From assembly GCA_963791345.1 (NCBI GenBank), contig CAWBRS010000021.1:656225-720224 (forward strand): a stretch of DNA of 64,000 bases. Direction: 5' to 3'. The notes beneath the pieces were generated by a model. That model was not told the DNA's origin, ran no database searches, and was given only the letters and a program-made list of their open reading frames with translations. Positions 6,473-53,852 of the stretch are shown piece after piece. This DNA comes from an uncultured Thermoleophilia bacterium (GTDB taxonomy: Bacteria; Actinomycetota; Thermoleophilia; UBA2241). The translations under genes were made by a program, and so were the position numbers. The number at the start of each line of letters is the position of its first letter. Position 1 is the stretch's first letter.

Positions 6473-7735
6473 CTACTTGAGGAAGCCCTCGTAGTGGCGC
6501 ATGAGCAGCTGGGCCTCCATCTGGCGCATCGTGTCGAGCGCGACGCCGACGACGATCAGGAGTGACGTGCCGCCGAAGTAGAAGGGCACGTCGAAGTACC
6601 GCGAGAGGATCCACGGCAGGAGCACGATGGCGCCGAGGAAGAGCGCCCCGGGCAGCGTGAGGCGGGTGAGGATGCGGTCGAGGAACTCGGCCGTCGGCCG
6701 CCCCGGGCGCACGCCGGGGATGAAGCCGCCGTACTTCTTCAGGTTGTTGGCCTGGTCGACCGGGTTGAAGGTGACCGCCGTGTAGAAGTAGGTGAACAGG
6801 ATGATGAGGAGGACCTCGCCGACGATGTAGAGGTAGCTCTGCGGCCCGAACGCCGTTGAGATCCACTCGGTCGGGCCGGTCGGGATGAACTGCGCGAGGG
6901 TCGGCGGGATCAGCATGATCGACGAGGCGAAGATCACCGGGATCACGCCGGCCATGTTGACCTTGAGCGGGATGAAGGTGCTGGAGCCGCCCATCATGCG
7001 GCGGCCCACCACGCGCTTGGCGTACTGCACGGGGATGCGGCGCTCGCCGGTCGTGATCCAGATGACGCCGACGATGACCGCGAGGGCGATGATCAGGAAG
7101 CTGATCTGGGCGACGAAGCTGAACGTGGTGAAGAACTGCACGACGCCGCCGGGGATGCTGCTCACGATGCTGATGAAGATCATGATCGACATGCCGTTGC
7201 CGATGCCGCGCGCGGTGATGAGCTCGCCGAGCCACATGACCGCCGTCGTGCCGGCGACCAGCGTGATCACGATGAGCGCGGCGCGCCACCAGTTGAGGTC
7301 GGGCAGCGCGTTGTAGCTGTTGAAGATCGTCAGGTAGCCGACCGACTGGACGAGGGCGAGCCCGACGGTCAGCCAGCGCGTGTACTTCGTGATCTGCTTC
7401 TGGCCCTGCTCGCCCTCCTTGGCCAGCTCCTCGAGCTTGGGGATGACCACGGTGAGGAGCTGCATGATGATCGAGGCGGTGATGTAGGGCATGATGCCCA
7501 GGGCGAAGACCGCCACCTGGCTGAGAGCGCCGCCGGAGAACAGGTTGAGGAGACCGACCACACCGGTGGAGCCGGTCTCGAAGAACTCCTGGAGCGCGTC
7601 GACGTCGACGCCCGGCGTCGGCACCCAGCAGCCGAAGCGATAGATCGCGATCATGCCGGCGGTGAAGAGCAGCTTGGCGCGCAGCTCCGGGATCTTCCAG
7701 GCGTTGACCAGCGACTGCCAGAGCTTGTTGTCCAC
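6473..7735 (-). CDS. secY: Preprotein translocase subunit SecY
   Basis: 420-aa polytopic ORF between rplO and adk; ..GIMPYITASIIMQLL.. TAG stop. Confidence 0.96.
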   Translation of the reverse strand: MDNKLWQSLVNAWKIPELRAKLLFTAGMIAIYRFGCWVPTPGVDVDALQEFFETGSTGVVGLLNLFSGGALSQVAVFALGIMPYITASIIMQLLTVVIPKLEELAKEGEQGQKQITKYTRWLTVGLALVQSVGYLTIFNSYNALPDLNWWRAALIVITLVAGTTAVMWLGELITARGIGNGMSIMIFISIVSSIPGGVVQFFTTFSFVAQISFLIIALAVIVGVIWITTGERRIPVQYAKRVVGRRMMGGSSTFIPLKVNMAGVIPVIFASSIMLIPPTLAQFIPTGPTEWISTAFGPQSYLYIVGEVLLIILFTYFYTAVTFNPVDQANNLKKYGGFIPGVRPGRPTAEFLDRILTRLTLPGALFLGAIVLLPWILSRYFDVPFYFGGTSLLIVVGVALDTMRQMEAQLLMRHYEGFLK

Positions 7736-34328: not shown

Positions 34329-34404
34329 TGGCAGGGCTGGAGGGACTCGAACCCCCGACCCCCGGTTTTGGAGACCGGTGCTCTACCAATTGAGCTACAG
34401 CCCT
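34329..34404 (-). tRNA. tRNA-Trp (anticodon CCA), CCA end encoded
   Basis: Reverse complement AGGGCTGTAGCTCAATTGGTAGAGCACCGGTCTCCAAAACCGGGGGTCGGGGGTTCGAGTCCCTCCAGCCCTGCCA. Canonical cloverleaf, GTTCGAGTC T-arm, anticodon loop CTCCAAA. Confidence 0.95.
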
Positions 34405-43323: not shown

Positions 43324-44523
43324 TTACTGCCCGGCCCACCAGCCGTCGCTCAGGGTGAGCAGGAAGGCGATGATCTGGTTCTCCTGGGTGGGGGTCAGAC
43401 CCAGGTCGCCCATCGTCGCCGTCTCGAGGTTGTCGGCCACCTCGGGCTCCGGCCAGCCCTCGCCGGGCACGTCGCGCGTGTTGTAGAAGTGGACGATGTC
43501 CTTGAGGGTCTTGAAGTAGCCGTTGTGACCGTACGGGGCCGTGTGGGCCACGTTGCGCAGGCTCGGCGTCCTGAACATGCCGTCGAACTGCGGGTTGGCC
43601 TCGACGCCGCCCGGCAGGTCGGCCGCCAGACCGTGGTCGATGTACTCGGCGCCGTCCGGGTTGAAGAGCGCCGGCAGCGTGAGGAAGGGACTCGCCCAGT
43701 TCTTGGGGATGCCGAGGTTGGCGAAGCGGTAGTCGCTGTAGAGGATCGGCTCGGTCGGCACGATGGTGCTGGCCTCGCTCGGGGGCAGTCCGCTCATCGG
43801 GTTCACGTGGCAGACCGAGCACTGCGCCGCGCCGTTGAAGAGCATCATGCCCATGCGTTCGTCGGCCGTGAAGGTCATCATCCGCGGGGGGCCGATCAGG
43901 GTCATGGCGTAGTCGTGCTTCGCGGTGAAGGAGTTGAGCTCGGTGCTCCGCTCGTAGGCGGCGATCGCCCCGACGATGCGGTCGTAGGCGCGGCGCACGT
44001 CGGTGAGCGACAGGCTGCGGCGACCGAAGACCGCCCTGAAGTCGTCGGCGTACTCCGACGCGGCGACACGCTTCACGACCGCCCGCCTGTTCGCCATGTT
44101 CATCTCGAGCGGGTTGAGGAAGGGCTCCTTCGCCTGCTCCTCGAGGGTCGGGGCGCGGCCGTCCAGGAACTGGCCGCCCACGTACGTCCCGAGCGTCTCG
44201 TCGAAGCTCCGGATCGGAGTGAACGAGGCGTACGCGGCACTCGGCGCGTTGCGAGCGCCGAAAAGACCCAGCACGGCGCCCTCGGAGACCGGAAGCAGGA
44301 TCTCCGGGTCGGCGAAGCCGGCTCCCGGGTCGTGGCAGCTGGCGCACGACTGCCCGCGCGGCGAGGACAGATCGGTGTCAAAGAAGATCTGCTCGCCGAC
44401 GGATGCCGGCGTCGGCGCCGCGCTCGCCACGGGGACCAGACACGCCGTCGCGAGCGCCACAAGACCGGCCACTACGACCAAACGTCCTCTCACAAAGACC
44501 ACCTTCCTCTTCTCGCCGCGCAT
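43324..44523 (-). CDS. Di-haem cytochrome c peroxidase (CCP/MauG family), secreted
   Basis: Conserved part of ORF 43324..44817 from MRGEKRKVVFVRGRLVVVAGLVALATA (signal). Two CxxCH motifs (CASCH, CSVCH). FRTPSLRNVAHTAPYGHNGYFKTLKDIVHFYN. Confidence 0.88.
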   Translation of the reverse strand: MRGEKRKVVFVRGRLVVVAGLVALATACLVPVASAAPTPASVGEQIFFDTDLSSPRGQSCASCHDPGAGFADPEILLPVSEGAVLGLFGARNAPSAAYASFTPIRSFDETLGTYVGGQFLDGRAPTLEEQAKEPFLNPLEMNMANRRAVVKRVAASEYADDFRAVFGRRSLSLTDVRRAYDRIVGAIAAYERSTELNSFTAKHDYAMTLIGPPRMMTFTADERMGMMLFNGAAQCSVCHVNPMSGLPPSEASTIVPTEPILYSDYRFANLGIPKNWASPFLTLPALFNPDGAEYIDHGLAADLPGGVEANPQFDGMFRTPSLRNVAHTAPYGHNGYFKTLKDIVHFYNTRDVPGEGWPEPEVADNLETATMGDLGLTPTQENQIIAFLLTLSDGWWAGQ

Positions 44524-44795
44524 CCGCGGCGCCGATTCATGCCAGGACCGGAGATCACCCCGGCCAGGGCGGCCCGCCGATCTCCGTGGGTCGCCGGCCG
44601 TGGCTGCCCGGCGCCCTGTCGCAGGCGCCTCACGACCTGGAGGAGCGTACGCGACGCGGGGTGCGCCCCTTGCGCACCCGATGCGGCACTTGCCGCGCGA
44701 CATACCCCGCAGGGTACGTGCGCCAAACCGTTCTCGCCCGAGCGTGCCTCGAGCCGAGCAGACATTCCACGACAGGACGCGCGAGGAGAAGCAGG

Positions 44796-44868
44796 TGGCG
44801 GGGACTAGGGGAGTCACACCCCTCTACACGGGTTTAGAGCCCGTGCTGATCCTTCCGATCGAGCCCCC
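44796..44868 (-). tRNA. pylT: Amber-suppressor tRNA(CUA) with tRNA-Pyl architecture
   Basis: Reverse complement GGGGGCT C GATC GGAAG GATC AG CACGGG CTCTAAA CCCGTG TAG AGGGG TGTGACT CCCCT AGTCCCC G CCA. 7-bp acceptor stem, 1 nt to the D stem, 4-bp D stem with a 5-nt loop, 6-bp anticodon stem, anticodon CUA, 3-nt variable loop, non-TPsiC T loop, G73, encoded CCA. Same strand as pylBCD. Confidence 0.85.
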
Positions 44869-44879
44869 GCGCCGTCCCG

Positions 44880-44885
44880 ATCATA
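44880..44885 (-). promoter_or_regulatory. Candidate -10 element (TATGAT) for pylT
   Basis: Minus strand TATGAT ends 11 nt upstream of tRNA position 1. No convincing -35. Confidence 0.3.
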
Positions 44886-45052
44886 CCGCGATGGCGCCCA
44901 GGCCGCCCGCCGGCGACCGTCTCGCGCAGGCAGCGGGAAGCGCGGGCGACGTCGTGACCATTGCGGCGCAGGCCCACATCCGCGTAGAGTTGCCCATCAC
45001 CCGTATGGCCCGACGTCGGCGCGAAGCGCGACCGGGGCCGCGGGCGTCCACG

Positions 45053-46126
45053 ATGCGAACGGGGGTACTCATGGGTGGCAAGGGACTGGGGTGGCTGCTG
45101 GCCATCGTCGGGGTCGTCCTCGTGGCGGCCGGGCTGGTCGTCATGCTGGTCGTCGTGCCGGGGATGAAGCAGCTGCCCGCCGACACCGACACCACGCGCA
45201 CGTACGAGGGCACGATGGCGTCCATGCTCAACCCGGCGACGTTCGAGATGATGACCGACCTGCCGATCGAGCTCGAGCGCCGCTTCTTCGTCGTCGAGAC
45301 CAGCGACGGCCTCGCCCTCGTCAAAGAGGAGCGCGCGATGACGAGCGGCGGCCAGCCGCTGCAGCAGGGCGTGAACCACTACTCCGTCGACCGCGTGACC
45401 ATGGAGTGGAGCGACGCCTACCCGGAGGAGTGGGCCGAGAACGAGGGCTTCTGGCCCCGCGAGGGCAACGTGATCGGCTGGCCGATGGACACCCAGCAGA
45501 GCGACTACACGGGCTGGAGCGACGACTACATGAGCACCGTGCCGCTGACCTTCGTCGAGGAGACGACGCACGAGCGCAGCGGCATGACGCTGTACAAGTT
45601 CACCTCGGCCAGCGACGCGCAGCCCATCGTCCCCGAGATGGTCCAGGGCATGGGGCTGCCCACCGAGCTGCCCAAGTCACAGCTCGCCCTCCTGCTCGGC
45701 GGCGTCGACCTCGGCCCCGCGGTCCAGGCACTGCTGCCGACGCTGCTCGAGCAGCTTCCGGAGACGGTGCCCCTCGGCTACTACTACGACTACGAGGGCA
45801 CGTACTGGGTCGACCCCGCGACGGGCATCATCGTCGACACCGAGAAGCGCGAGACGCGCACCGTCGGCTTGAGTCCGGACGGCATCGTGGGGACGGCTCT
45901 CGAGCTGCTGCCCGCCGAGCAGCTCGGCGCCCTGCAGGTGCCCATCCTGGACTACACCTACACGGCCACCGACGTCGCGGTCGAAGAGGCGAAGGCCGAC
46001 GCCGAGGACGCGGCCGGCATGCTGCAGCTCTACGGCATGACCCTGCCGCTGATCGGGATCGTCGCCGGCGCCCTTCTCCTGGTGCTCGGCATCGTGTTCA
46101 TCGCACGCAAGCCGAAGGCCGCCTGA
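45053..46126 (+). CDS. DUF3068-family (PorA-like) membrane protein
   Basis: C-terminal 357 aa of ORF 44003..46126 from MRTGVLMGGKGLGWLLAIVGVVLVAAGLVV.. N- and C-terminal TM helices flank a large extracytoplasmic domain. The upstream part of the ORF is antisense to the peroxidase gene. ATG 45071 is an alternative start. Confidence 0.75.
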   Translation: MRTGVLMGGKGLGWLLAIVGVVLVAAGLVVMLVVVPGMKQLPADTDTTRTYEGTMASMLNPATFEMMTDLPIELERRFFVVETSDGLALVKEERAMTSGGQPLQQGVNHYSVDRVTMEWSDAYPEEWAENEGFWPREGNVIGWPMDTQQSDYTGWSDDYMSTVPLTFVEETTHERSGMTLYKFTSASDAQPIVPEMVQGMGLPTELPKSQLALLLGGVDLGPAVQALLPTLLEQLPETVPLGYYYDYEGTYWVDPATGIIVDTEKRETRTVGLSPDGIVGTALELLPAEQLGALQVPILDYTYTATDVAVEEAKADAEDAAGMLQLYGMTLPLIGIVAGALLLVLGIVFIARKPKAA

Positions 46127-46319: not shown

Positions 46320-47186
46320 TCAGGCGAGGGCCCGCGCCGCCATGACGGCGACGCCGATGGCGAGCGGCTCGTGGATGTGGCGCACGCCGAGCCGGGCCTG
46401 CGCCGCGCCCGTGAAGGCCGACGGGACACCGGGGACGGCGGCGATCGTGCGCGGCCCGACCTGCGCCTCGTCGATGACGGCCGGCGCCGGGGTGGCGTCG
46501 AAGACCAGGTCGACGCCGCGCAGGCCCTCGGCGAGCTCGACGCGCTCGAACGCCAGCCCCCGAGCCGCGGCCAGCGCGGCGCGCTCGCCGTCGGGTTCGA
46601 CCACCGAAAGGCGGGCGCCGCGGGCGAGGAGTCGGCCCGCGGCGGCGCAGCCCACGGGCCCGAGGCCGAGCAACAGCACCCGCCGGCCGGCGAGGCCGCC
46701 CGCGGCCGCCTCCAGCGCCGTCACGTAGCCGTGCGCCGTCGCCGGGTCGTCGTCGACGCAGCGTCCCTTACGGACGTTCACGGCGACGAAGCGGTGGTCG
46801 TCGGCCATGAAGAACACCTCGGCGCCGCCGTCGACCGCCTCCTGGATGCCGCGCACGTCGGCCTGGGCCGTCACCGTGGCCTTCCACCCCATGTGACGGA
46901 GGATGACGGCGACGCACTCGCTGAAGCCCGAGATGAGACCTTCACCGGTCGTGACCGGCACGCAGGCGAAGGCGGCGTCACTCCGAAGACCGGAAGCAGA
47001 CGCGGGAGAAGGGGCAGCGGCGGGAAGGGCTGCTGGGTGACCGGGGCTCGGGGCTGCCGCGTCCGCGGCCACCGTGCGGGCGGCGAGGGTGCGCAGCGTG
47101 AGGCCGGAGACCTCGACCAGCCCGCTCTCGAAGCGGAGGAGACCCGCCGTCAAGGCTCTGACGTCGTCCTCGGTCAGGCGGGTCAT
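46320..47186 (-). CDS. pylD: Pyrrolysine biosynthesis protein PylD (3-methylornithyl-N6-L-lysine dehydrogenase)
   Basis: 288 aa from MTRLTEDDVRALTAGLL.. in ORF 46320..48197. Blocks VPVTTGEGLISGFS, FFMADDHRFVAVNVRKGR, LLLGLGPVG and IHEPLAIGVAVM match remembered Methanosarcina PylD blocks. ATGA overlap with the pylC stop. Confidence 0.9.
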   Translation of the reverse strand: MTRLTEDDVRALTAGLLRFESGLVEVSGLTLRTLAARTVAADAAAPSPGHPAALPAAAPSPASASGLRSDAAFACVPVTTGEGLISGFSECVAVILRHMGWKATVTAQADVRGIQEAVDGGAEVFFMADDHRFVAVNVRKGRCVDDDPATAHGYVTALEAAAGGLAGRRVLLLGLGPVGCAAAGRLLARGARLSVVEPDGERAALAAARGLAFERVELAEGLRGVDLVFDATPAPAVIDEAQVGPRTIAAVPGVPSAFTGAAQARLGVRHIHEPLAIGVAVMAARALA

Positions 47187-48403
47187 GGCGCCTCCTGCGC
47201 GACGAGATCCAGCGTTTCGCGCCGCGCCAGGTCGCGGGTGACCTCGTCGGCGCGGGCCCGCGCCTCGGCGACCGTCGCGCCGGCGCAGATCAGCGTCGCC
47301 GACCACGAGGCGGCGCCGGGCGCGTAGTCGGTCAGGGCCTCGTCGGCGCCGTAGAAGCCCTCGACGAGGCGCAGCGGGCGGGCACTCCCCATGACGTGCT
47401 CGCCGAGCACGGCCAGGCGCCCGCCCGCGGCGTGCACGTGCTGGTAGACGCAGGCGGCGCGCGGCGCGCGGTCGAGCACGGGCGGCGCGCCGCGCGCGAC
47501 GCAGGCGACGAGGCCCTCGAGCAGGTTGACGCCGCTGGACCACAGGACCGCGGTCGGAGTCTGGCTGGGCAGCCGGGCGTCGATCTCGAGCAGCCGCGGC
47601 CCGTCGGGCGCCACCATCACCTCGACGTCCATCAGGCCGGTGAGGCCGAGGCCCTCGGCGAGCCGCACGGCGATGTCGTCGAGGGCCTCGAGCGTGCCGG
47701 CCGGGACGGCGCGCGACCAGTCGGCGGAAGCGGTCGGGGAGGCGGCGGCGGGCAGCGTGCCCGCCGCCGCCTCCCCGACCGGCGCCACGACGCGCTTGCA
47801 GTCGTAGCCCTCGTCGAACTCGAGCCCCGTCGCCTGCAGCGGCACCGCCCGGCCGCCCGCCGCGAGGACCTCGATCGACAGCGACGGCCCGGCCACGAAC
47901 TCCTCGACCACCACCTCGTGGCCGGCGCCGCTGAGACGCGCCCGTGCCGCGCTCAAGCTTGCCTCGTCGTCGACCACCGTGACGCCCTCGCTGCCGCTGG
48001 CCGAGGAGGGCTTGACCACGGCGGGGAAGCCGCACCCAGGCCACGCCCGCGGCCCGGCCACGCCGAGCTCGGCCGCGAGCCGGTTCGAGGCGAGCTTGGA
48101 CGCGGTCACCCGGTACGCGGCAAGGTCGAAGAGGAGCGGCACACCCCAAGCCCCCACGTGGGCGTCGAGCCAGGCGAGCGTCTCGTCGTCTTCGCAAGCC
48201 GGCAGCACCGCGTCACAGGCGCACAGGACGGAGCGACTCGTCTCCTCGTCGGCGGTCACGTCGAGCGCCACGACCCGGTCGGCCAAGCCCGCTGCCGGCG
48301 CCTCCTCGCGGCGGTCGACGAGGACGGTCTCGTACCCGGCCTTCCGCGCCAGGTAGACGGCCTCGGTCCCCTGCAGCTTGCCGCCGACGATCGCGAGCCT
48401 CAC
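47183..48403 (-). CDS. pylC: Pyrrolysine biosynthesis protein PylC (3-methylornithine--L-lysine ligase, ATP-grasp)
   Basis: 406 aa from GTG 48403 (GGGAGG upstream): VRLAIVGGKLQGTEAVYLARKAG.., LFDLAAYRVTASK, LEIDARLPSQTPTAVLWSSGVNLLE. Lies in ORF 47183..48643. Confidence 0.9.
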   Translation of the reverse strand: MRLAIVGGKLQGTEAVYLARKAGYETVLVDRREEAPAAGLADRVVALDVTADEETSRSVLCACDAVLPACEDDETLAWLDAHVGAWGVPLLFDLAAYRVTASKLASNRLAAELGVAGPRAWPGCGFPAVVKPSSASGSEGVTVVDDEASLSAARARLSGAGHEVVVEEFVAGPSLSIEVLAAGGRAVPLQATGLEFDEGYDCKRVVAPVGEAAAGTLPAAASPTASADWSRAVPAGTLEALDDIAVRLAEGLGLTGLMDVEVMVAPDGPRLLEIDARLPSQTPTAVLWSSGVNLLEGLVACVARGAPPVLDRAPRAACVYQHVHAAGGRLAVLGEHVMGSARPLRLVEGFYGADEALTDYAPGAASWSATLICAGATVAEARARADEVTRDLARRETLDLVAQEAP

Positions 48404-48455: not shown

Positions 48456-49565
48456 TCACGCCCGGGCCTCCCACGCCGCCCCCGGCCTGGCGACCTCGGT
48501 GCCGACCCCGCGGCGTGCCTCCTCGACCCATGCGGCGTAGGCCGCCGCGCCGGCGTGGCGCAGGCCGAGCCTGGCCAGGTGCGGCAGGACGCCGGCGACG
48601 GTGCGGTGACCTTCCTCGATGTCCAGCTCCGACTGAGAGACACCGGCGAGCCCCGTCGTCGGCGGCACGATCGAGGTGACGACGTTGGCCCCGGCCAGCA
48701 GACGGCGCTCGAGACCGCGTATGCCGTCGACGTCGAGCGAGGCGGGGATCAGACGGTCGGGCATCGCCAGCCGCATGACGGCGATGGTGCGCAGCTCGTC
48801 GCCGTCGTCCGGCGGCGGGGTCCCCGCCAGCGGCGTCCCCGCCTGCGGGACGAAGGTCATCACGCGCACCTGCTGCCAGCCGCCCGCGCGCATCGTGGCG
48901 ATGGATCGGGCGCGGTCGGCGACCGCGTCGCCGATGCCGGTGAGGAGGCCGTCCTCGACGAGGAGGCCGGCGGCGCGGGCCGCGGCGCGGGCCGCGACGC
49001 GCCGTGCGAACGGCTGGCCGACGCGCAGGCGCGCGTAGAGCTCCGACGAGTGCGTCTCCTGGTAGAGCGCGTACCAGTCGGCGCCGCGCCGCCGCAGCTC
49101 ACCGAGCACCTCGTCGTCGACGACTCCCGGCGAGACCATGACCGGGAGCCCGGTGGCCTTGCGCACGGCGCCGACCAGCTCGACGAGCCGCGCGGCGCCG
49201 TCTCGAAGGAGCACGGGGTCCTCGCCCATCGTCAGGTCGAGAAGGTCGACGCCCGAGCCGGCCAGGTCGCGGCAGATGGCGACGACCTCGTCGGGGCTCT
49301 TGCGGTACCGCGGGCTCTCGGGGTTGCCGACGCGGTAGTAGCAGAACGTGCACGCGTTACGGCAGAAGGTCGAGAAGTAGACGAAGCCGTAGAGGAAGAC
49401 GGCGTCGCCGAAGTGGCGTGTGCGCTGCTCGCGGGCGGCGGCGTAGAGCTCCTCGGCGCCCTCGTCGTCGGCGTCGAGGAGCCGCCCCAGAGCGGCCTCG
49501 CCGAGGGCACCGCGCTCGAGGGCCCGCGCGCACAGCTCGCGGATCTCGGCGACTGGGGTGGTCAC
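48456..49565 (-). CDS. pylB: Pyrrolysine biosynthesis radical-SAM protein PylB (methylornithine synthase)
   Basis: 369 aa from GTG 49565 (GGGAGGA upstream): ..FVYFSTFCRNACTFCYY (CxxxCxxC), DLTMGEDP, ALYQETHSSELYARLRVGQ, VRVMTFVPQAGTPL, RLIPASLDVDGI, GANVVTSIVPP. Lies in ORF 48456..49673. Confidence 0.9.
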   Translation of the reverse strand: MTTPVAEIRELCARALERGALGEAALGRLLDADDEGAEELYAAAREQRTRHFGDAVFLYGFVYFSTFCRNACTFCYYRVGNPESPRYRKSPDEVVAICRDLAGSGVDLLDLTMGEDPVLLRDGAARLVELVGAVRKATGLPVMVSPGVVDDEVLGELRRRGADWYALYQETHSSELYARLRVGQPFARRVAARAAARAAGLLVEDGLLTGIGDAVADRARSIATMRAGGWQQVRVMTFVPQAGTPLAGTPPPDDGDELRTIAVMRLAMPDRLIPASLDVDGIRGLERRLLAGANVVTSIVPPTTGLAGVSQSELDIEEGHRTVAGVLPHLARLGLRHAGAAAYAAWVEEARRGVGTEVARPGAAWEARA

Positions 49566-49791: not shown

Positions 49792-50454
49792 TCAGCGGAA
49801 CTCGAGGACGTCGTCTACAGGGCGCCGCGGTCCGCGCCGCGGGCGTCCGGCCGGGCGCCCGACGGGCACGACGGCCACCAGGCAAGCGGGGGCTTCGACG
49901 CCGAGCAGCTCCTCGATCGCCGGGGCGGCGATCACCGGGCCGGTCATCCAGCAGCTCCCGTAGCCCATCGCGTGGGCCGCCGTGCAGAGGACCTGTACGG
50001 CGGCGCCGATGCTCTGCAGGTCGGGCCGCTGGCGCAGGCGGTCGTGCTCCTCCCGCGAGAGCCCGCGGAGTCGCAGCAGCTCATCGCCGCGTGACTCGTA
50101 GGGGAGAACGAAGACGGCGATGACCACGGGCGCGGCGACGAAGAAGGTCGCGTACGCCCTGATCGCCTTGACGTCGGCGGCGCGGCCCGCGCACTCCGGC
50201 CAGGCCGCGACCTCGTCGAGCGCCGCGTCGACGGCCGTCGCCATGGCACGGCGGGTGGCCTCGTCCTCGACGGCCACGAAGCGCCAGCACTGAGCGTTTC
50301 CCGCGTTCGCGGCCCGCGTCGCGCAGGCCACCATGGCGCGGACGTCGTCGCGCGGTACCGCGTCGGGCAGGAAGCGCCGCACGCTGCAGCGCCCCTCGAC
50401 CGCAGCGGAGAGGCTGACCCCCTCGAGCAAGTGCCCACAGGCCGTCTCGTCCAT
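49792..50454 (-). CDS. Nitroreductase family protein
   Basis: 220-aa ORF ..RCSVRRFLPDAVPRDDVRAMVACATRAANAGNAQCWRFVAV..GYGSCWMTG.. The ATG lies 7 nt after a TAGCAT hexamer, so a leaderless mRNA is possible. Confidence 0.85.
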   Translation of the reverse strand: MDETACGHLLEGVSLSAAVEGRCSVRRFLPDAVPRDDVRAMVACATRAANAGNAQCWRFVAVEDEATRRAMATAVDAALDEVAAWPECAGRAADVKAIRAYATFFVAAPVVIAVFVLPYESRGDELLRLRGLSREEHDRLRQRPDLQSIGAAVQVLCTAAHAMGYGSCWMTGPVIAAPAIEELLGVEAPACLVAVVPVGRPAGRPRRGPRRPVDDVLEFR

Positions 50455-50494
50455 GCCGGGGATGCTACCAGAGTAGTCAACGGACGCGGCGGAG

Positions 50495-50565
50495 CCCCGA
50501 GATCACGACGGGGCCTGCGACCCCGAGACCGCGACGGGGCTACCGGTTCCGAGGGCGCGACGGGG
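50495..50565. repeat. Three direct repeats, period 26 nt (ccccgagaYcRcgacgggg), upstream of the nitroreductase gene
   Basis: ccccgagatcacgacgggg at 50495, ccccgagaccgcgacgggg at 50521, ttccgagggcgcgacgggg at 50547. Each has ccccg/cgggg inverted ends. Confidence 0.8.
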
Positions 50566-50594
50566 CGGGCGGCCCGGTGGGCCGCCCGCCCCGT
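50558..50594 (-). terminator. Perfect 17-bp hairpin downstream of the MoaD-like gene
   Basis: gacggggcgggcggccc ggt gggccgcccgccccgtc, 25 nt after the stop at 50620. Confidence 0.5.
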
Positions 50595-50619
50595 CGTCCC
50601 TCGCTTCGCGCCGACCGCC

Positions 50620-50889
50620 TCAGCCGCCGGAGATCGGCGGCACGACCTTCATCGTGTCGCCGTCCTCGAGCACCGTAGAGAGCCCCTCGCGGGCGTTGAT
50701 GTTGCGCCCGTTGAGGAACACGCCGGCCCACATGCGGCCGTCGTCGCGGAAGATCCGCGGCCTGAGCCGCGGCTCGACGGCGACGGCCTGCTCGAGGGCC
50801 TCACCGACGGTCGCCGCGTCACACTCGACCTCGCGGCGACCGTCGGCGGTCGTCATCCCGACCGGCAGCTTGACGCTGACCCCTGCCAT
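50620..50889 (-). CDS. MoaD/ThiS-family ubiquitin-like sulfur-carrier protein
   Basis: 89 aa from MAGVSVKLPVGMTTADGRREVECD.. to ..DTMKVVPPISGG (C-terminal Gly-Gly). C-terminal part of ORF 50620..51114. Confidence 0.8.
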   Translation of the reverse strand: MAGVSVKLPVGMTTADGRREVECDAATVGEALEQAVAVEPRLRPRIFRDDGRMWAGVFLNGRNINAREGLSTVLEDGDTMKVVPPISGG

Positions 50890-50893
50890 GCGC

Positions 50894-51392
50894 CTAGCCC
50901 TGCAGCTCCCGGTCCATCTTGTCGACCTTGAGGTCGACGGCGAGGACGTGCGGGTTCTGGCAGAAGGCGATGCACTGGGGCTCGCCCTCGCAGAGGTCGC
51001 ACTTGAAGGCGACCTCCCTCTCGGGGTGCTCGTGGATGACCCCGGTCGGGCAGACCTCGTAGCACTCGCCGCAGTTCGTGCACTTCTCTTCGTCGACGAC
51101 GAGCACGTAGCCACGGACGAGCTCGCCGTTCTTCGCCTTCGAGGGGTAGTCGCCCTTGACCCGCAGCGTGATCTCGCGGGTCACGATGGCGTCCTTGGGG
51201 CAGGCGTCCTGGCACTTGGCGCAGGCGGTCTGCAGGCAGGTGTGGCCCTTGATCTGCCCCGTCGTCGGGTTGACCTCGACTGAAGAGGCGGGCGACCGAG
51301 GGCCGGTAGGCGCCCTCGTGCTGCGCCGAGCAGGCGAGCTCGCACATGTGGCAGCCGGTGCACTTCTTCGAGCTGATCATCACGTGAGGCAT
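50894..51392 (-). CDS. 4Fe-4S dicluster ferredoxin-type electron-transfer subunit, frame broken once (about 51280)
   Basis: MPHVMISSKKCTGCHMCELACS.. (ORF 50853..51392). After one extra base it continues VEVNPTTGQIKGHTCLQTACAKCQDACPKDAIV..EEKCTNCGECYEVCP..KCDLCEGEPQCIAFC (ORF 50894..51184). Confidence 0.8.
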
Positions 51393-51428
51393 GGTCTTCT
51401 GTCCCTTCGTCTCTCGTGGACCGGCCGG

Positions 51429-53244
51429 CTAGAGGCGCACGTCGATGCCGAGCTCGGAGAGCTTGGCCTCGGAGGGGACGCCGGAGGCGTCCCAGCCGCG
51501 CTGCGTGTAGTACTCGGCCATCATGGCGTTGAACCTGTCTTCGCCGATCGCCTGACCCGCCGACGGGCCGTCGGCGAAGGCGCCCGACTTCGCGTAGAGC
51601 TTCTTCGGCAGGTCGTCCTTCTCGACGCCCTCGCGCAGGTTGAACAGGCGGCCGAGGTTCCAGACGCGCTCGCCGATCTCGAGGACCTCGTCCTCGGTGA
51701 AGTCGCGGCCCCACAGCTCCTTGAAGAGGATCACGATCTGCTCAGGCGTGATCGCCCAGAAGTCGCACCAGATGCCGCTGAACTTGATCGAGCTCATGTT
51801 CTGCCCGATGAAGCCCTTGGAGGAGTCGCCGACGACGATCTGCTCGACCTTGTCGGGGTCGAGCTCGTTCGGCGGCGAGGTACCGGCGACGAGCTCGTCG
51901 CCGGTGGGATAGGTGCGCATGTGGCAGCCGCCGCGGTCGCTGGTCGCGTAGCCGACGCTCATGCCGAACGACCCGCGCGGGTCGTAGCCGGGGAGCTCGA
52001 GGCCCTTGACCTCCATGGCGAGCTCGGGATGGCCGTACTTGGCGGCCAGGGCACGCGTGCCGAGGGCGAGCTCGGCGCCGATGCCTTCACGCTGCGCGAT
52101 CAGCGTCGGCGCCGCGACGTAACCCTCGACCTCGCCGAAGCGCAGACCGAAGTCCTTGATGCCCTTCTCGGTCAGGTCCATGGCGAGGCCGACGACGGCG
52201 CCGCTCGAGATGGTGTCGAGGCCGAGCTCGTCGCAGAGCTCGTTGAACTTCATCAGGGCGTCGATGTCGTCGATGCCGCAGTTGGCGCCGCAGAGGGCGA
52301 TGGTCTCATACTCAGGACCCTCGCCGCGGACCTCCTCGCCGCTCGAAGGTCGTGGCGTGGAAGTTGCGGCAGCCGATCGCGCACTGGTAGCAGGCGCGCT
52401 TCTTGGTGCGGATCTTCTGGAACGACTCGGAGTTGATCTTCGCGGCGCCCTCGAAGGAGCCCGCCGACCAGTTGCGGGTCGGGAAGGCGCCGCCGCCATT
52501 GATGACGTCGACCAGCACCGGCGTGCCCTCTTCGTGCGCCCAGAGGTTGTCTTCGGTGAGGATGTACTCCTCGTGCATCTTGTAGATGAGGTCGAGGAAC
52601 GCCTTCGCGTCGCCCACGGGGACCGAGCCGGTGCCACGCACGACCACGGCCTTGAGGTTCTTGTCGCCCATGAGGGCGCCGTGACCGCCACGGCCGGCCT
52701 TGTGGTACTGGTCGGTCGAGATGCAGGCCCAGGGGATCTTCGCCTCGCCGGCGGGGCCGATGGAGAGCGTCTTGGCGTCGGGGTCGACGTCCTTGCGCAT
52801 GGCCTCCTCGACCGCGGAGGTCTTCATGCCCACGTACTTGTCGGCCGGGCGGAACTCGACGACGTCGTCCTTGATGACGACGACCGTCGGCTTCGCCGCC
52901 TTGCCCGTGATGATGACCGCGTCGTAGCCCGCGAACTTGAGCTCGGGCGCGAACGAGCCGCCGACGTAGCTGTCGGTGTAGATGCCGGTCGTCGGGCTCT
53001 TGCATCCGACCACGAGGCGCGACGCCGTGGTCACGCCGGTGCCCGCGAACGGCCCCGTCATCAGGATGATGGGGTTCTCGGGCGCCCACGGGTCGACCTT
53101 CGCCGGCACCTCCTGCCACATGTAGCGCAGCAGCAGACCCTTGCCGCCGATGTACTGCTCGGCCCACTCCATGTTCAGCGGCTCGACGGCCGTCGTGTCG
53201 GCGCTCAGGTCGACCCTGAGCACGTTGCCCTTGTAGAAGTCCAA
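51429..53244 (-). CDS. aor: Tungsten/molybdopterin aldehyde:ferredoxin oxidoreductase (AOR family), frame broken once (about 52341)
   Basis: N-terminus MDFYKGNVLRVDLSADTTAVEPLNMEWAEQYIGGKGLLLRYM.. up to ..ACYQCAIGCRNFHATTFE (ORF 52312..53244). Continues GEEVRGEGPEYETIALCGANCGIDD.. to ..ELGIDVRL (ORF 51429..52691). Total about 605 aa. TAG stop. Confidence 0.9.
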
Positions 53245-53495: not shown

Positions 53496-53852
53496 CTAGT
53501 CCTCGTAGATCGCCCAGAGCTTGCGCACGGGCTTCAGGCTGCGCCAGAAGCCGCTGCTGCCCTTCGGCGTGTCGAGGATGTCGCCCGGGCCGGCGTGCAC
53601 CACGGTGCCGTCGTCGAGCTCGATCTCGACCTCGCCCTCGAGGATCAGCGCGACCTCGTGGTACGGACGCGTGAACGGCCGGCGCTGCAGGTCCCGCTGC
53701 CAGTAGCCGACGTGGAACTTGCCGTCGGGCGAGCCGGCGGCGGTGAACTCACCGCCCGGCGGGTCGGTCTCCTCGGGGTTGCGCGCGGCCTCGCTCCAGA
53801 CCACGTCGTCCGGACCGATGACCCTGATCTGCGGGCTGGTCTCGTCGCTCAT
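53496..53852 (-). CDS. Cupin-domain protein (cupin_3/DUF861-like)
   Basis: 118-aa ORF ..GYWQRDLQRRPFTRPYHEVALILEGEVEIELDDGTVVHAGPGDIL.. Confidence 0.7.
   Translation of the reverse strand: MSDETSPQIRVIGPDDVVWSEAARNPEETDPPGGEFTAAGSPDGKFHVGYWQRDLQRRPFTRPYHEVALILEGEVEIELDDGTVVHAGPGDILDTPKGSSGFWRSLKPVRKLWAIYED

What the first reader, a model, noticed from the sequence alone, without database searches (positions are those of the whole stretch)
44796..44868. Unannotated amber-suppressor tRNA carrying every structural idiosyncrasy of tRNA-Pyl (pylT)
The reverse complement of 44796-44868 reads GGGGGCU-C-GAUC-GGAAG-GAUC-AG-CACGGG-CUCUAAA-CCCGUG-UAG-AGGGG-UGUGACU-CCCCU-AGUCCCC-G-CCA (73 nt). Folded by hand it has these parts. 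The acceptor stem is 7 bp (G1:C72, one G:U). Only one nucleotide separates the acceptor and D stems. The D stem is 4 bp (GAUC/GAUC) with a 5-nt D loop that lacks G18G19. The anticodon stem is 6 bp. The loop CUCUAAA gives anticodon CUA, which reads UAG. The variable loop is 3 nt. The T stem is 5 bp (G51:C63) with a T loop lacking the T-Psi-C consensus. The discriminator is G73 and the CCA end is encoded. Each deviation from a canonical elongator tRNA is a published hallmark of tRNA-Pyl, and the GAUC D stem and CUCUAAA loop match Methanosarcina and Desulfitobacterium pylT as I remember them. The gene is on the same strand as pylBCD, 1.45 kb downstream of pylD, and a TATGAT hexamer ends 11 nt upstream.
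Basis: partly seen in the sequence, partly recalled or inferred. Interest (0 to 1): 0.92.

Follow-up and report, generated by a model that had tools for sequence, protein, structure and literature searches.

The report
Pyrrolysine tRNA gene in a Thermoleophilia genome
This 73-base stretch is a real gene for the special tRNA that reads the UAG stop codon as the 22nd amino acid, pyrrolysine; it sits beside the pyrrolysine-synthesis genes in an uncultured soil actinobacterium, making it a new example of a known system rather than a new kind of thing.

Summary
The minus-strand sequence at 44796-44868 is a genuine tRNA-Pyl gene (pylT).

- **Detection:** ARAGORN calls it at exactly these coordinates. 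A covariance model built only from pylT genes of other lineages hits it at 90.7 bits (E 4e-20), the only significant hit in 64 kb.
- **Structure:** Across 17 distinct homologues, 99% of cells pair and 9 of 23 pairs show compensatory changes.
- **Context:** It lies 1.45 kb downstream of pylB, pylC and pylD, which all score above their NCBIfam cut-offs. A -10-like box ends 11 nt upstream and is conserved across relatives.
- **Organism:** An uncultured Thermoleophilia (Actinomycetota). The pylBCD-pylT module occurs in more than 50 species-level MAGs of this class.

No pylS (PylRS) gene is in the window, although most related genomes carry pylSn and pylSc within about 5 kb of pylT. In the window's clade the module sits near the ribosomal-protein and rpoBC cluster instead. 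Related contigs carry pylSc and pylSn without pylT or pylBCD, so PylRS is probably encoded elsewhere, but I could not show this. No in-frame UAG gene is in the window.

Pyl systems in Actinobacteria are already reported, so this is a new member of a known kind, of modest interest.

The parts
44796..44868 (-). pylT, the tRNA-Pyl gene. It is 73 nt with anticodon CUA, discriminator G73 and an encoded CCA.
   Evidence: ARAGORN calls it. The MFE fold is a cloverleaf at -35.7 kcal/mol. Covariance model R1 scores 90.7 bits, E 4.4e-20. Nine of 23 pairs show compensatory changes, and RNAalifold predicts the same structure. The sequence is identical in L003-L006, L078 and L079, where PylD is only 77-87% identical to the window's.
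44880..44885 (-). A -10-like hexamer, TATGAT, that ends 11 nt upstream of the mature 5' end. It is the putative promoter of pylT.
   Evidence: Read directly from the sequence. In 54 of 66 distinct pylT upstream regions a TANNNT hexamer starts at -16 to -18, against 2 or fewer at any other offset. The strict two-hexamer sigma-70 scan was negative. Function is inferred.
46320..47186 (-). pylD, encoding 3-methylornithyl-N6-L-lysine dehydrogenase.
   Evidence: TIGR03911 scores 187 bits against a cut-off of 150. The 288-aa product equals P0001. It matches L001 PylD over residues 1-282 of 292.
47183..48403 (-). pylC, encoding 3-methylornithine--L-lysine ligase.
   Evidence: TIGR03909 scores 320.7 bits against a cut-off of 248. 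It is collinear with L001 PylC over residues 1-406.
48456..49565 (-). pylB, encoding methylornithine synthase (radical SAM). The start is placed by homology; the open frame extends to 49673.
   Evidence: TIGR03910 scores 443.9 bits against a cut-off of 348. tblastn with L001 PylB matches 49565-48477.
45071..46126 (+). A PorA-family membrane protein gene on the opposite strand, inserted between pylD and pylT. It rules out co-transcription of pylT with pylBCD.
   Evidence: It is 93% identical to the L001 gene that carries PF11271 PorA. The same insertion is present in L003, L033/L074 and L078. It is absent in most Thermoleophilia, where pylT follows pylD by about 25-150 nt.
43324..44526 (-). A MauG/MbnH-like di-haem cytochrome c peroxidase gene, the next gene downstream of pylT on the same strand. 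It is probably unrelated to the Pyl system.
   Evidence: PF03150 scores 120 bits and TIGR04039 114.6 bits, below its cut-off. It follows pylT in L076 and L077 but not in L003, L033 or L078.

Best explanation
This is a functional pylT gene, the amber-decoding tRNA of a bacterial pyrrolysine system, in an uncultured member of the class Thermoleophilia (Actinomycetota).

**Shown here**
- The sequence folds into the compact tRNA-Pyl cloverleaf.
- The cloverleaf is kept by compensatory substitutions.
- The sequence is identical or nearly so within the window's clade, while the flanks and neighbouring proteins diverge.
- It has a positionally conserved -10-like box.
- It lies next to intact pylB, pylC and pylD.

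**Inferred mechanism**
1. pylT is transcribed from its own promoter with a leader of a few nucleotides, and RNase P trims it.
2. PylB, PylC and PylD make pyrrolysine from two lysines.
3. A split PylRS (PylSc plus PylSn), encoded outside this 64-kb window, charges the tRNA. It would recognise G73, G1:C72, the GAUC D stem and the small variable and T-loop surface.
4. Pyl-tRNA(CUA) then inserts pyrrolysine at in-frame UAG codons of methylamine methyltransferase genes elsewhere in the genome.
5. UAG remains an ordinary stop for other genes.

**Genome arrangement**
In the window's clade the AOR-Fer4-ThiS-nitroreductase-pylBCD-pylT block has been separated from pylS. It now lies about 10 kb from the tRNA-Trp, ribosomal-protein and rpoBC cluster.
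For: **The tRNA itself**
- ARAGORN calls it at the exact coordinates.
- The MFE fold and the RNAalifold consensus are the same cloverleaf.
- Model R1, built without the window clade, gives 90.7 bits, E 4.4e-20, as the only significant hit.
- 99.2% of cells pair, 9 of 23 pairs are compensatory, and 0 of 500 shuffles reach this.
- The window clade differs from the main Thermoleophilia pylT by five double substitutions that all preserve pairing.
- It is 63% identical to a published Methanosarcina PylT and has the same architecture.

**Biosynthesis genes**
- pylB, pylC and pylD score above their equivalog cut-offs and are full length.

**Conservation**
- pylT lies downstream of pylD on the same strand in about 60 loci.
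- The tRNA is identical in the window, L003-L006, L078 and L079, where PylD is 77-87% identical to the window's.
- The flanks are variable except for the -10 box and a GCGC just before G1.

**PylRS in relatives**
- pylSn and pylSc lie within about 5 kb of pylT in most Thermoleophilia loci.
- L072, L075 and a JGI contig carry pylSc, a corrinoid protein, a radical SAM gene and (L072, L075) pylSn. This is the complement of the window's layout.
- A window-clade PylD and a split-type PylSc occur in consecutive runs SRR28876184-86.

**Use of Pyl in the phylum**
- Dimethylamine methyltransferase (MtbB) genes lie next to pyl genes in other Actinomycetota; the L064 copy has an in-frame UAG and scores 733 bits to PF09505.
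- Actinobacteriota MAGs express Pyl-type mttB and mtbB (PMC10805028).
Against: - No pylSc or pylSn is detectable in the window, which spans 44.8 kb downstream of pylT and about 14 kb upstream of pylB. None is detectable in the loci of its closest relatives L001-L007 and L033.
- I could not show that the same genome encodes PylRS. No PylSc hit sits on a contig of 743,095 bp, the length of the window's contig.
- No in-frame UAG gene is present in the window.
- UAG ends 6-9 of about 54 confident ORFs there, so decoding must be selective.
- No Rfam tRNA hit appears even at E up to 10. To my knowledge this is usual for tRNA-Pyl, but it means the standard model gives no support.
- Expression, processing and charging are untested.
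Confidence: 0.88

Rival explanations
1. pylT and pylBCD are kept in a lineage that has lost PylRS. The tRNA would then be a decaying relic, or it would be charged by another enzyme or serve a non-decoding role, with pyrrolysine made as a free metabolite.
For: pylS is absent from the window and from every window-clade locus: L001-L007 and L033 by tblastn, and L074 and L076-L079 by their gene tables. Nearly all other Thermoleophilia keep pylSn and pylSc beside pylT. No Pyl-dependent gene is seen in the window. Two nearby genes, AOR and Fer4, carry frameshifts.
Against: - The tRNA is 100% identical across clade members whose PylD is 77-87% identical to the window's.
- Five compensatory double changes separate the clade from other Thermoleophilia without breaking a single pair.
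- The -10 box is retained, and pylB, pylC and pylD are intact.
- All of this indicates continuing selection on a working tRNA.
- pylS loci lacking pylT and pylBCD exist in related organisms, as expected if the two halves are simply unlinked.
Confidence: 0.07
2. It is an ordinary amber-suppressor tRNA derived from a canonical elongator tRNA such as Gln, Lys or Tyr, not a tRNA-Pyl.
For: It has a CUA anticodon. To my knowledge, ARAGORN's 'Pyl' label follows from the anticodon alone.
Against: - It does not match the general tRNA model RF00005 even at E up to 10, whereas the neighbouring tRNA-Trp scores 73 bits.
- It has a single base at position 8, a 5-nt D loop, an extended anticodon stem, a variable region of 3 nt or fewer and no T-Psi-C.
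- It scores 90.7 bits on a pylT-only model.
- It is syntenic with pylD in about 60 genomes.
Confidence: 0.02
3. It is a chance tRNA-like fold, or a structured element of the divergent porA/CCP intergenic region such as a regulatory element or an integration site, and not a tRNA gene.
For: The single-sequence folding z-score is only -2.5, and 3 of 200 shuffles fold as well. GC-rich DNA folds easily.
Against: Covariation, the covariance-model hit, exact conservation and the encoded CCA argue against chance. The element keeps its position relative to pylD, not to porA or CCP, which are absent from most loci.
Confidence: 0.01

Closest known systems
Bacterial 'class S' pyrrolysine system (Desulfitobacterium hafniense type: pylT with split PylSn + PylSc and pylBCD)
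   Same: - It is a bacterial tRNA-Pyl with G73, G1:C72, a GAUC D stem, a 5-nt D loop, a CUCUAAA loop and a short variable region.
- pylB, pylC and pylD are present.
- Thermoleophilia relatives encode PylSn and PylSc as separate genes, the bacterial architecture described in PMC9630628 and PMC11467909.
   Different: - In this clade pylT and pylBCD are not next to pylS.
- pylT lies downstream of pylD and is separated from it by an opposite-strand porA gene.
- The host is a high-GC actinobacterium (70.7% GC), not a Firmicute or a deltaproteobacterium.
- The tRNA is 73 nt and has a covarying extra pair that extends the anticodon stem.
Methanosarcina PylT (72 nt; sequence as printed in PMC6566996)
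   Same: The segment plan is the same, and 46 of 73 aligned positions are identical. Shared features include the GAUC/GAUC D stem, the CUCUAAA loop, the NAG variable region, G73 and CCA.
   Different: The window tRNA has one extra nucleotide between the D and anticodon stems. Its T loop is UGUGACU rather than UUAGAUU, and its stems are GC-rich. The Methanosarcina partner is a fused PylSn-PylSc enzyme, whereas Thermoleophilia have split genes.
pylT of other Actinomycetota MAGs (L054, L064)
   Same: They belong to the same phylum, have the CUA anticodon and the compact architecture, and are linked to pylS and pylBCD.
   Different: They are 72 nt and have a U73 discriminator and a GGUC/GACC D stem. 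They sit beside pylSn, pylSc and mtbB genes; the L064 copy has an in-frame UAG. The window tRNA has G73 and none of these neighbours.
tRNA-Sec (selC), the other natural stop-codon-recoding tRNA
   Same: It is a dedicated, structurally atypical tRNA that reads a stop codon (UGA) as a non-canonical amino acid.
   Different: From general knowledge, tRNA-Sec has a long variable arm and an 8+5 or 9+4 acceptor/T arrangement. It is charged with Ser and then converted, and it needs SelB and a SECIS element. None of these features is present here.

Membership tests
tRNA-Pyl (pylT) | CUA anticodon in a 7-nt loop (CUCUAAA) | tested here: met
   Seen in the sequence and reported by ARAGORN as anticodon cta. 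The loop is invariant in the 17-sequence alignment.
tRNA-Pyl (pylT) | [quoted passage not shown] | tested here: met
   The D loop is GGAAG, and its second base varies among homologues. The variable region is UAG, or AG if the seventh pair forms.
tRNA-Pyl (pylT) | An extended anticodon stem of 6 bp or more | tested here: met
   There are six Watson-Crick pairs plus a seventh G:U. Five of the seven pairs covary.
tRNA-Pyl (pylT) | A T loop lacking the T-Psi-C consensus | tested here: met
   The T loop is UGUGACU. It differs at one position in 3 of the 17 homologues.
tRNA-Pyl (pylT) | The G73 discriminator and the G1:C72 pair, which are PylRS identity elements (from memory of Herring 2007 and Ambrogelly 2007; G is called the canonical discriminator in PMC11467909) | tested here: met
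   Both are present and invariant in Thermoleophilia. That they act as identity elements for this organism's PylRS is not tested.
tRNA-Pyl (pylT) | A significant match to a structure and sequence model of known pylT genes | tested here: met
   Model R1, built from 14 pylT genes of other clades including Desulfobacterales and Eubacteriales, gives 90.7 bits, E 4.4e-20, as a unique hit.
tRNA-Pyl (pylT) | Genomic association with the pyrrolysine biosynthesis genes pylBCD | tested here: met
   TIGR03910, TIGR03909 and TIGR03911 all score above their cut-offs, 1.45-4.8 kb upstream on the same strand.
tRNA-Pyl (pylT) | A cognate PylRS (pylS, or pylSc + pylSn) in the same genome | tested here: inconclusive
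   None is in the 64-kb window or in the close relatives' loci. It is present beside pylT in most other Thermoleophilia. Unlinked pylS loci exist in related contigs. The rest of this genome could not be searched.
tRNA-Pyl (pylT) | Target genes with in-frame UAG (mttB, mtbB or mtmB) | tested here: inconclusive
   None is in the window; the only same-frame UAG junction is the secY stop followed by the next gene, inferred to be adk. Such genes are present next to pyl genes in other Actinomycetota. The rest of the genome was not available.
tRNA-Pyl (pylT) | Charged with pyrrolysine and decodes UAG | not testable with these tools
   This needs aminoacylation assays, suppression assays or proteomics.
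Canonical elongator tRNA (Rfam RF00005) | A score at or above the 29-bit gathering threshold on the general tRNA model | tested here: not met
   There is no RF00005 hit at the gathering threshold, or at E up to 10 on 44600-45100. tRNA-Trp in the same window scores 73.3 bits.

The most novel reading that the evidence does not exclude
In this Thermoleophilia clade the pylBCD-pylT block has been moved away from pylS. It now lies about 10 kb from the tRNA-Trp, ribosomal-protein and rpoBC cluster. The evidence does not exclude that the lineage has no PylRS at all. In that case a perfectly conserved tRNA-Pyl would be charged by a different enzyme or serve a role other than Pyl decoding, and pyrrolysine would be made without the known route into proteins.
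Probability: 0.06. Interest if true: 0.8.

Novelty: new member of a known kind. Interest (0 to 1): 0.3.

Why it matters
The pyrrolysine system is usually associated with methanogenic archaea and a limited set of anaerobic Firmicutes and Deltaproteobacteria. A 2022 survey counted PylRS in only two Actinobacteria (PMC9630628).

Here the pylBCD-pylT module appears in more than 50 species-level Thermoleophilia or Actinomycetota MAGs. The full-text search found no paper on pyrrolysine in Thermoleophilia; the one hit mentions each term only once. These bacteria may therefore be an under-recognised group of UAG-recoding, probably methylamine-using organisms.

Gene callers will truncate their Pyl proteins unless pylT is recognised, so annotating it is useful.

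The tRNA and its partner PylSc and PylSn form a natural GC-rich variant that could interest genetic-code-expansion work. This particular gene adds no new mechanism.

Tried and rejected
1. **Rfam.** There was no tRNA hit on the site at the gathering threshold or at E up to 10. This is uninformative rather than negative, because a dedicated pylT model hits strongly.
2. **Source genome.** Looking up the window's own PylD found nothing on record, so the rest of the genome could not be searched.
4. **Linking a pylS locus to the window's genome.**
   - No PylSc cluster sits on a 743,095-bp contig, or on the contigs of L003, L007 or L033.
   - Sample accessions of the split-type pylS contigs (ERZ25039527, SRR28876184, JGI 3300056388) differ from those of the window-clade pylD contigs (ERZ25039600, ERZ25039477, SRR28876185/86, JGI 3300027690 and 3300005254).
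   - Only the adjacent SRR run numbers hint at co-occurrence.
5. **In-frame UAG genes.** The window gave only the secY junction with the next gene, inferred to be adk. Thermoleophilia loci gave only adjacent same-frame genes. MtbB was found only in non-Thermoleophilia loci.
6. **Promoter and terminator scan.** The strict scan found nothing.
7. **Guo et al. 2022 supplement.** It was not held, so the two Actinobacteria they list could not be identified.
8. **Frame errors of mine.** Two family scans used a wrong reading frame: porA at 45004 and Fer4 at 50894-51392. These produced empty results and were corrected with tblastn.
9. **MauG-like peroxidase.** I considered that this gene downstream of pylT belongs to the system. 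I rejected the idea because it is missing from most window-clade loci.

Full report
**Observation**

ARAGORN finds two tRNAs in the 64-kb window. One is tRNA-Trp at 34329-34404. The other has anticodon cta and lies at 44796-44868 on the minus strand. To my knowledge ARAGORN assigns the label 'Pyl' from the anticodon, so I did not treat the label as evidence of identity.

The minimum-free-energy fold is a cloverleaf at -35.7 kcal/mol:
- a 7-bp acceptor stem with one G:U;
- one unpaired base before the D stem;
- a 4-bp GAUC/GAUC D stem with a 5-nt loop;
- a 7-nt CUCUAAA anticodon loop;
- a 5-bp T stem with a UGUGACU loop;
- G73 and an encoded CCA.

The folding z-score is only -2.5, so the fold alone is weak evidence in 70.7% GC DNA. 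Rfam's general tRNA model does not match the site, either at the gathering threshold or at E up to 10 on a 501-nt slice. It scores the neighbouring tRNA-Trp at 73 bits. The molecule is therefore far from a canonical elongator tRNA.

**Is it more than chance?**

I collected homologous loci with the window's PylD protein. ARAGORN found a cta tRNA on the pylD strand, downstream of pylD, in almost every locus. A covariance search recovered the one ARAGORN missed, in L008.

The 63 extracted sequences collapse to 25 distinct ones. On the 17 distinct 73-nt sequences (alignment A2):
- The cloverleaf pairs in 99.2% of cells.
- 9 of 23 pairs show changes on both sides.
- None of 500 column shuffles reaches the observed values for paired cells, compensatory pairs or covariation score.
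- Sliding the 3' partners by 1-3 columns drops pairing to 37-56%.
- RNAalifold predicts the same structure without being given it.

The window's clade differs from the main Thermoleophilia sequence by double substitutions at five pairs: C6:G instead of G:C, two pairs in the anticodon stem and two in the T stem. Every one preserves pairing.

The set excluded the window's clade and included Desulfobacterales, Eubacteriales, Syntrophobacterales and other Actinomycetota. Against the whole window, both strands, it gives one significant hit at 44796-44868 (-): 90.7 bits, E 4.4e-20. The next best hit has E 0.85.

**What it is**

The published description of tRNA-Pyl stresses a compact core with a 3-nt variable loop and a 5-nt D loop (PMC11467909). 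A Methanosarcina PylT sequence printed in PMC6566996 aligns to the window sequence with 46 of 73 identities and the same segment plan. The window tRNA has one extra base between the D and anticodon stems.

- **D loop.** It is GGAAG, so it does contain GG. Its second base is G, A, U or C in relatives, so this is not a conserved G18G19.
- **Anticodon stem.** It can extend to a seventh pair (column 23 with 43). This pair is G:U here and G:C or A:U elsewhere, which would leave a 2-nt variable region.

**Surroundings**

NCBIfam equivalog models identify three genes on the same strand:

| Gene | Coordinates | Bits | Cut-off |
|---|---|---|---|
| pylB | 48456-49565 | 443.9 | 348 |
| pylC | 47183-48403 | 320.7 | 248 |
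| pylD | 46320-47186 | 187 | 150 |

All three are collinear with intact orthologues. Between pylD and pylT lies an opposite-strand PorA-family membrane protein gene at 45071-46126, so pylT cannot be co-transcribed with pylBCD.

A TATGAT hexamer at 44885-44880 ends 11 nt before G1. In 54 of 66 distinct pylT upstream regions from all clades, a TANNNT hexamer starts at -16 to -18. No other offset has more than two. The four bases before G1 are GCGC in 48 of the 66. The flanks are otherwise unalignable, so the tRNA with its -10 box is an island of conservation. A strict two-hexamer sigma-70 scan finds nothing, so promoter function is inferred.

Upstream of pylB there is a conserved block: nitroreductase, a ThiS/SAMP-like gene, a 4Fe-4S protein and an aldehyde:ferredoxin oxidoreductase. 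Downstream of pylT is a MauG-like di-haem peroxidase gene. It is not consistently linked to pylT in relatives.

**Organism and distribution**

The closest named relatives of PylD are Thermoleophilia MAGs at 85-88% identity. Thermoleophilia is a class of Actinomycetota. The scan of one genome per species returned 68 loci. More than 50 of them come from Thermoleophilia, Actinomycetota or Actinomycetes MAGs.

**The missing synthetase**

tBLASTn finds no pylS in the window, either with M. mazei PylRS or with Thermoleophilia PylSc and PylSn taken from locus L055. It also finds none in the loci of the closest relatives L001-L007 and L033. The same queries find pylSn about 1.1 kb after pylT, and pylSc about 3-4 kb further on the opposite strand, in most other Thermoleophilia loci.

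The window extends 44.8 kb beyond pylT into the tRNA-Trp, ribosomal-protein and rpoBC region, and about 14 kb beyond pylB. In this clade the biosynthesis-plus-tRNA block has therefore been separated from pylS.

The complementary arrangement exists. L072 (a 407-kb contig), L075 and a JGI contig share the same gene order:
- **All three** carry BacA, an amidase, pylSc, a corrinoid protein and a radical SAM gene, and none carries pylBCD.
- **L072 and L075** continue with pylSn, a Germane-domain gene and a MalT-like regulator.
- **L072 and L075** have no pylT. The DNA of the JGI contig was not available, so pylT could not be checked there.

A normal locus, L073, continues from the Germane gene straight into pylT-pylD-pylC-pylB.

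I could not tie a split pylS locus to the window's genome:
- No PylSc cluster is on a 743,095-bp contig.
- Sample accessions differ.
- The only hint is that a split-type PylSc (SRR28876184) and a window-clade PylD (SRR28876185 and SRR28876186) occur in consecutive runs.

**Use of UAG**

Among confident high-GC3 ORFs in the window, the stops are TGA 38, TAG 9 and TAA 7. Three of the TAG cases look like antisense artefacts. UAG is therefore still a stop codon.

The only place where coding sequence continues in frame past a TAG is the end of secY, followed by the next gene, which I infer from gene order to be adk. No Pyl-dependent gene lies in the window or in Thermoleophilia loci within 10 kb.

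Other Actinomycetota loci carry a dimethylamine methyltransferase gene next to the pyl genes. The L064 copy has an in-frame UAG and scores 733 bits to PF09505, and L054 has homologues. Actinobacteriota MAGs have been reported to express Pyl-type mttB and mtbB (PMC10805028).

**Mechanism**

*Shown:* a conserved, covarying tRNA-Pyl gene with its own conserved -10 box, beside intact pylBCD.

*Inferred:*
- It is transcribed independently.
- It is charged by a split PylRS encoded elsewhere in the genome.
- It decodes selected UAG codons in methylamine methyltransferase genes.

The main rival is loss of PylRS in this clade. The evidence argues against it: the tRNA is perfectly conserved across members whose PylD is 77-87% identical to the window's, and five compensatory changes arose on the branch leading to the clade. 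The rival is not excluded, and I give it 6-7%.

**Novelty and score**

- Bacterial Pyl systems with split PylSn and PylSc are well known.
- PylRS has been reported in two Actinobacteria (PMC9630628).
- NCBI already names PylD and the PylRS large subunit in Thermoleophilia MAGs.
- The full-text search found no paper on pyrrolysine in Thermoleophilia; its single hit mentions each term only once.

The breadth of the system in this class and the unlinked arrangement are mildly new. The tRNA itself is a new member of a known kind. I score interest at 0.3.

Noticed in passing
window 51429-53244 (-) and 50894-51392 (-): The aldehyde:ferredoxin oxidoreductase gene changes frame at about 52344, and the adjacent 4Fe-4S gene changes frame at about 51246-51277. 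Both are intact in the orthologous locus L001. pylB, pylC, pylD and porA are intact in the window. These are either single-base assembly errors or real pseudogenes.
   Followed up: partly
L054 5215-5286 and L064 2571-2642: Two other Actinomycetota MAGs carry a 72-nt pylT with a U73 discriminator and a GGUC/GACC D stem. It lies next to pylSn, pylSc and dimethylamine methyltransferase genes; the L064 copy has an in-frame UAG (L064 39-1466, PF09505, 733 bits). U73 pylT genes were noted as rare in PMC9630628.
   Followed up: partly
L072 10001-20123; L075 10001-14953: These loci carry pylSc, a corrinoid (B12-binding) protein, a radical SAM gene, pylSn and a Germane-domain gene, followed by a MalT-like regulator. 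They have no pylT and no pylBCD. This is the complement of the window's layout.
   Followed up: partly
window 49792-53244 and loci L001, L003, L073, L074, L078: A conserved gene order lies upstream of pylB across Thermoleophilia: aldehyde:ferredoxin oxidoreductase, a 4Fe-4S protein, a ThiS/SAMP1-like small protein, then pylBCD. The window clade also has a nitroreductase (BluB/FbiB-like) before pylB, which L073 lacks. Any functional link to pyrrolysine is unknown.
   Followed up: no
L048 10001-10867: The PylD match covers only residues 71-287, and a tRNA-Ser(tga) sits where pylT is expected. No pylT, pylSn or pylSc was detected. This may be a decayed pyl cluster.
   Followed up: no
L008 10831-10903: ARAGORN missed a pylT here that the covariance model scores at 101 bits, so ARAGORN alone slightly under-counts these genes.
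   Followed up: yes
window 6473-6475 (-): secY ends with TAG, and the next gene, inferred to be adk, follows immediately in the same frame. If tRNA-Pyl is active, read-through here would fuse the two proteins. Other genes ending in TAG include the 4Fe-4S gene (stop codon 50894-50896) and the cupin gene (53496-53498).
   Followed up: no
L007 12444-12516: In this closest species-level relative the pylT 3' end reads CCG instead of CCA, and its PylD match stops at residue 279. Both may be long-read assembly errors.
   Followed up: no
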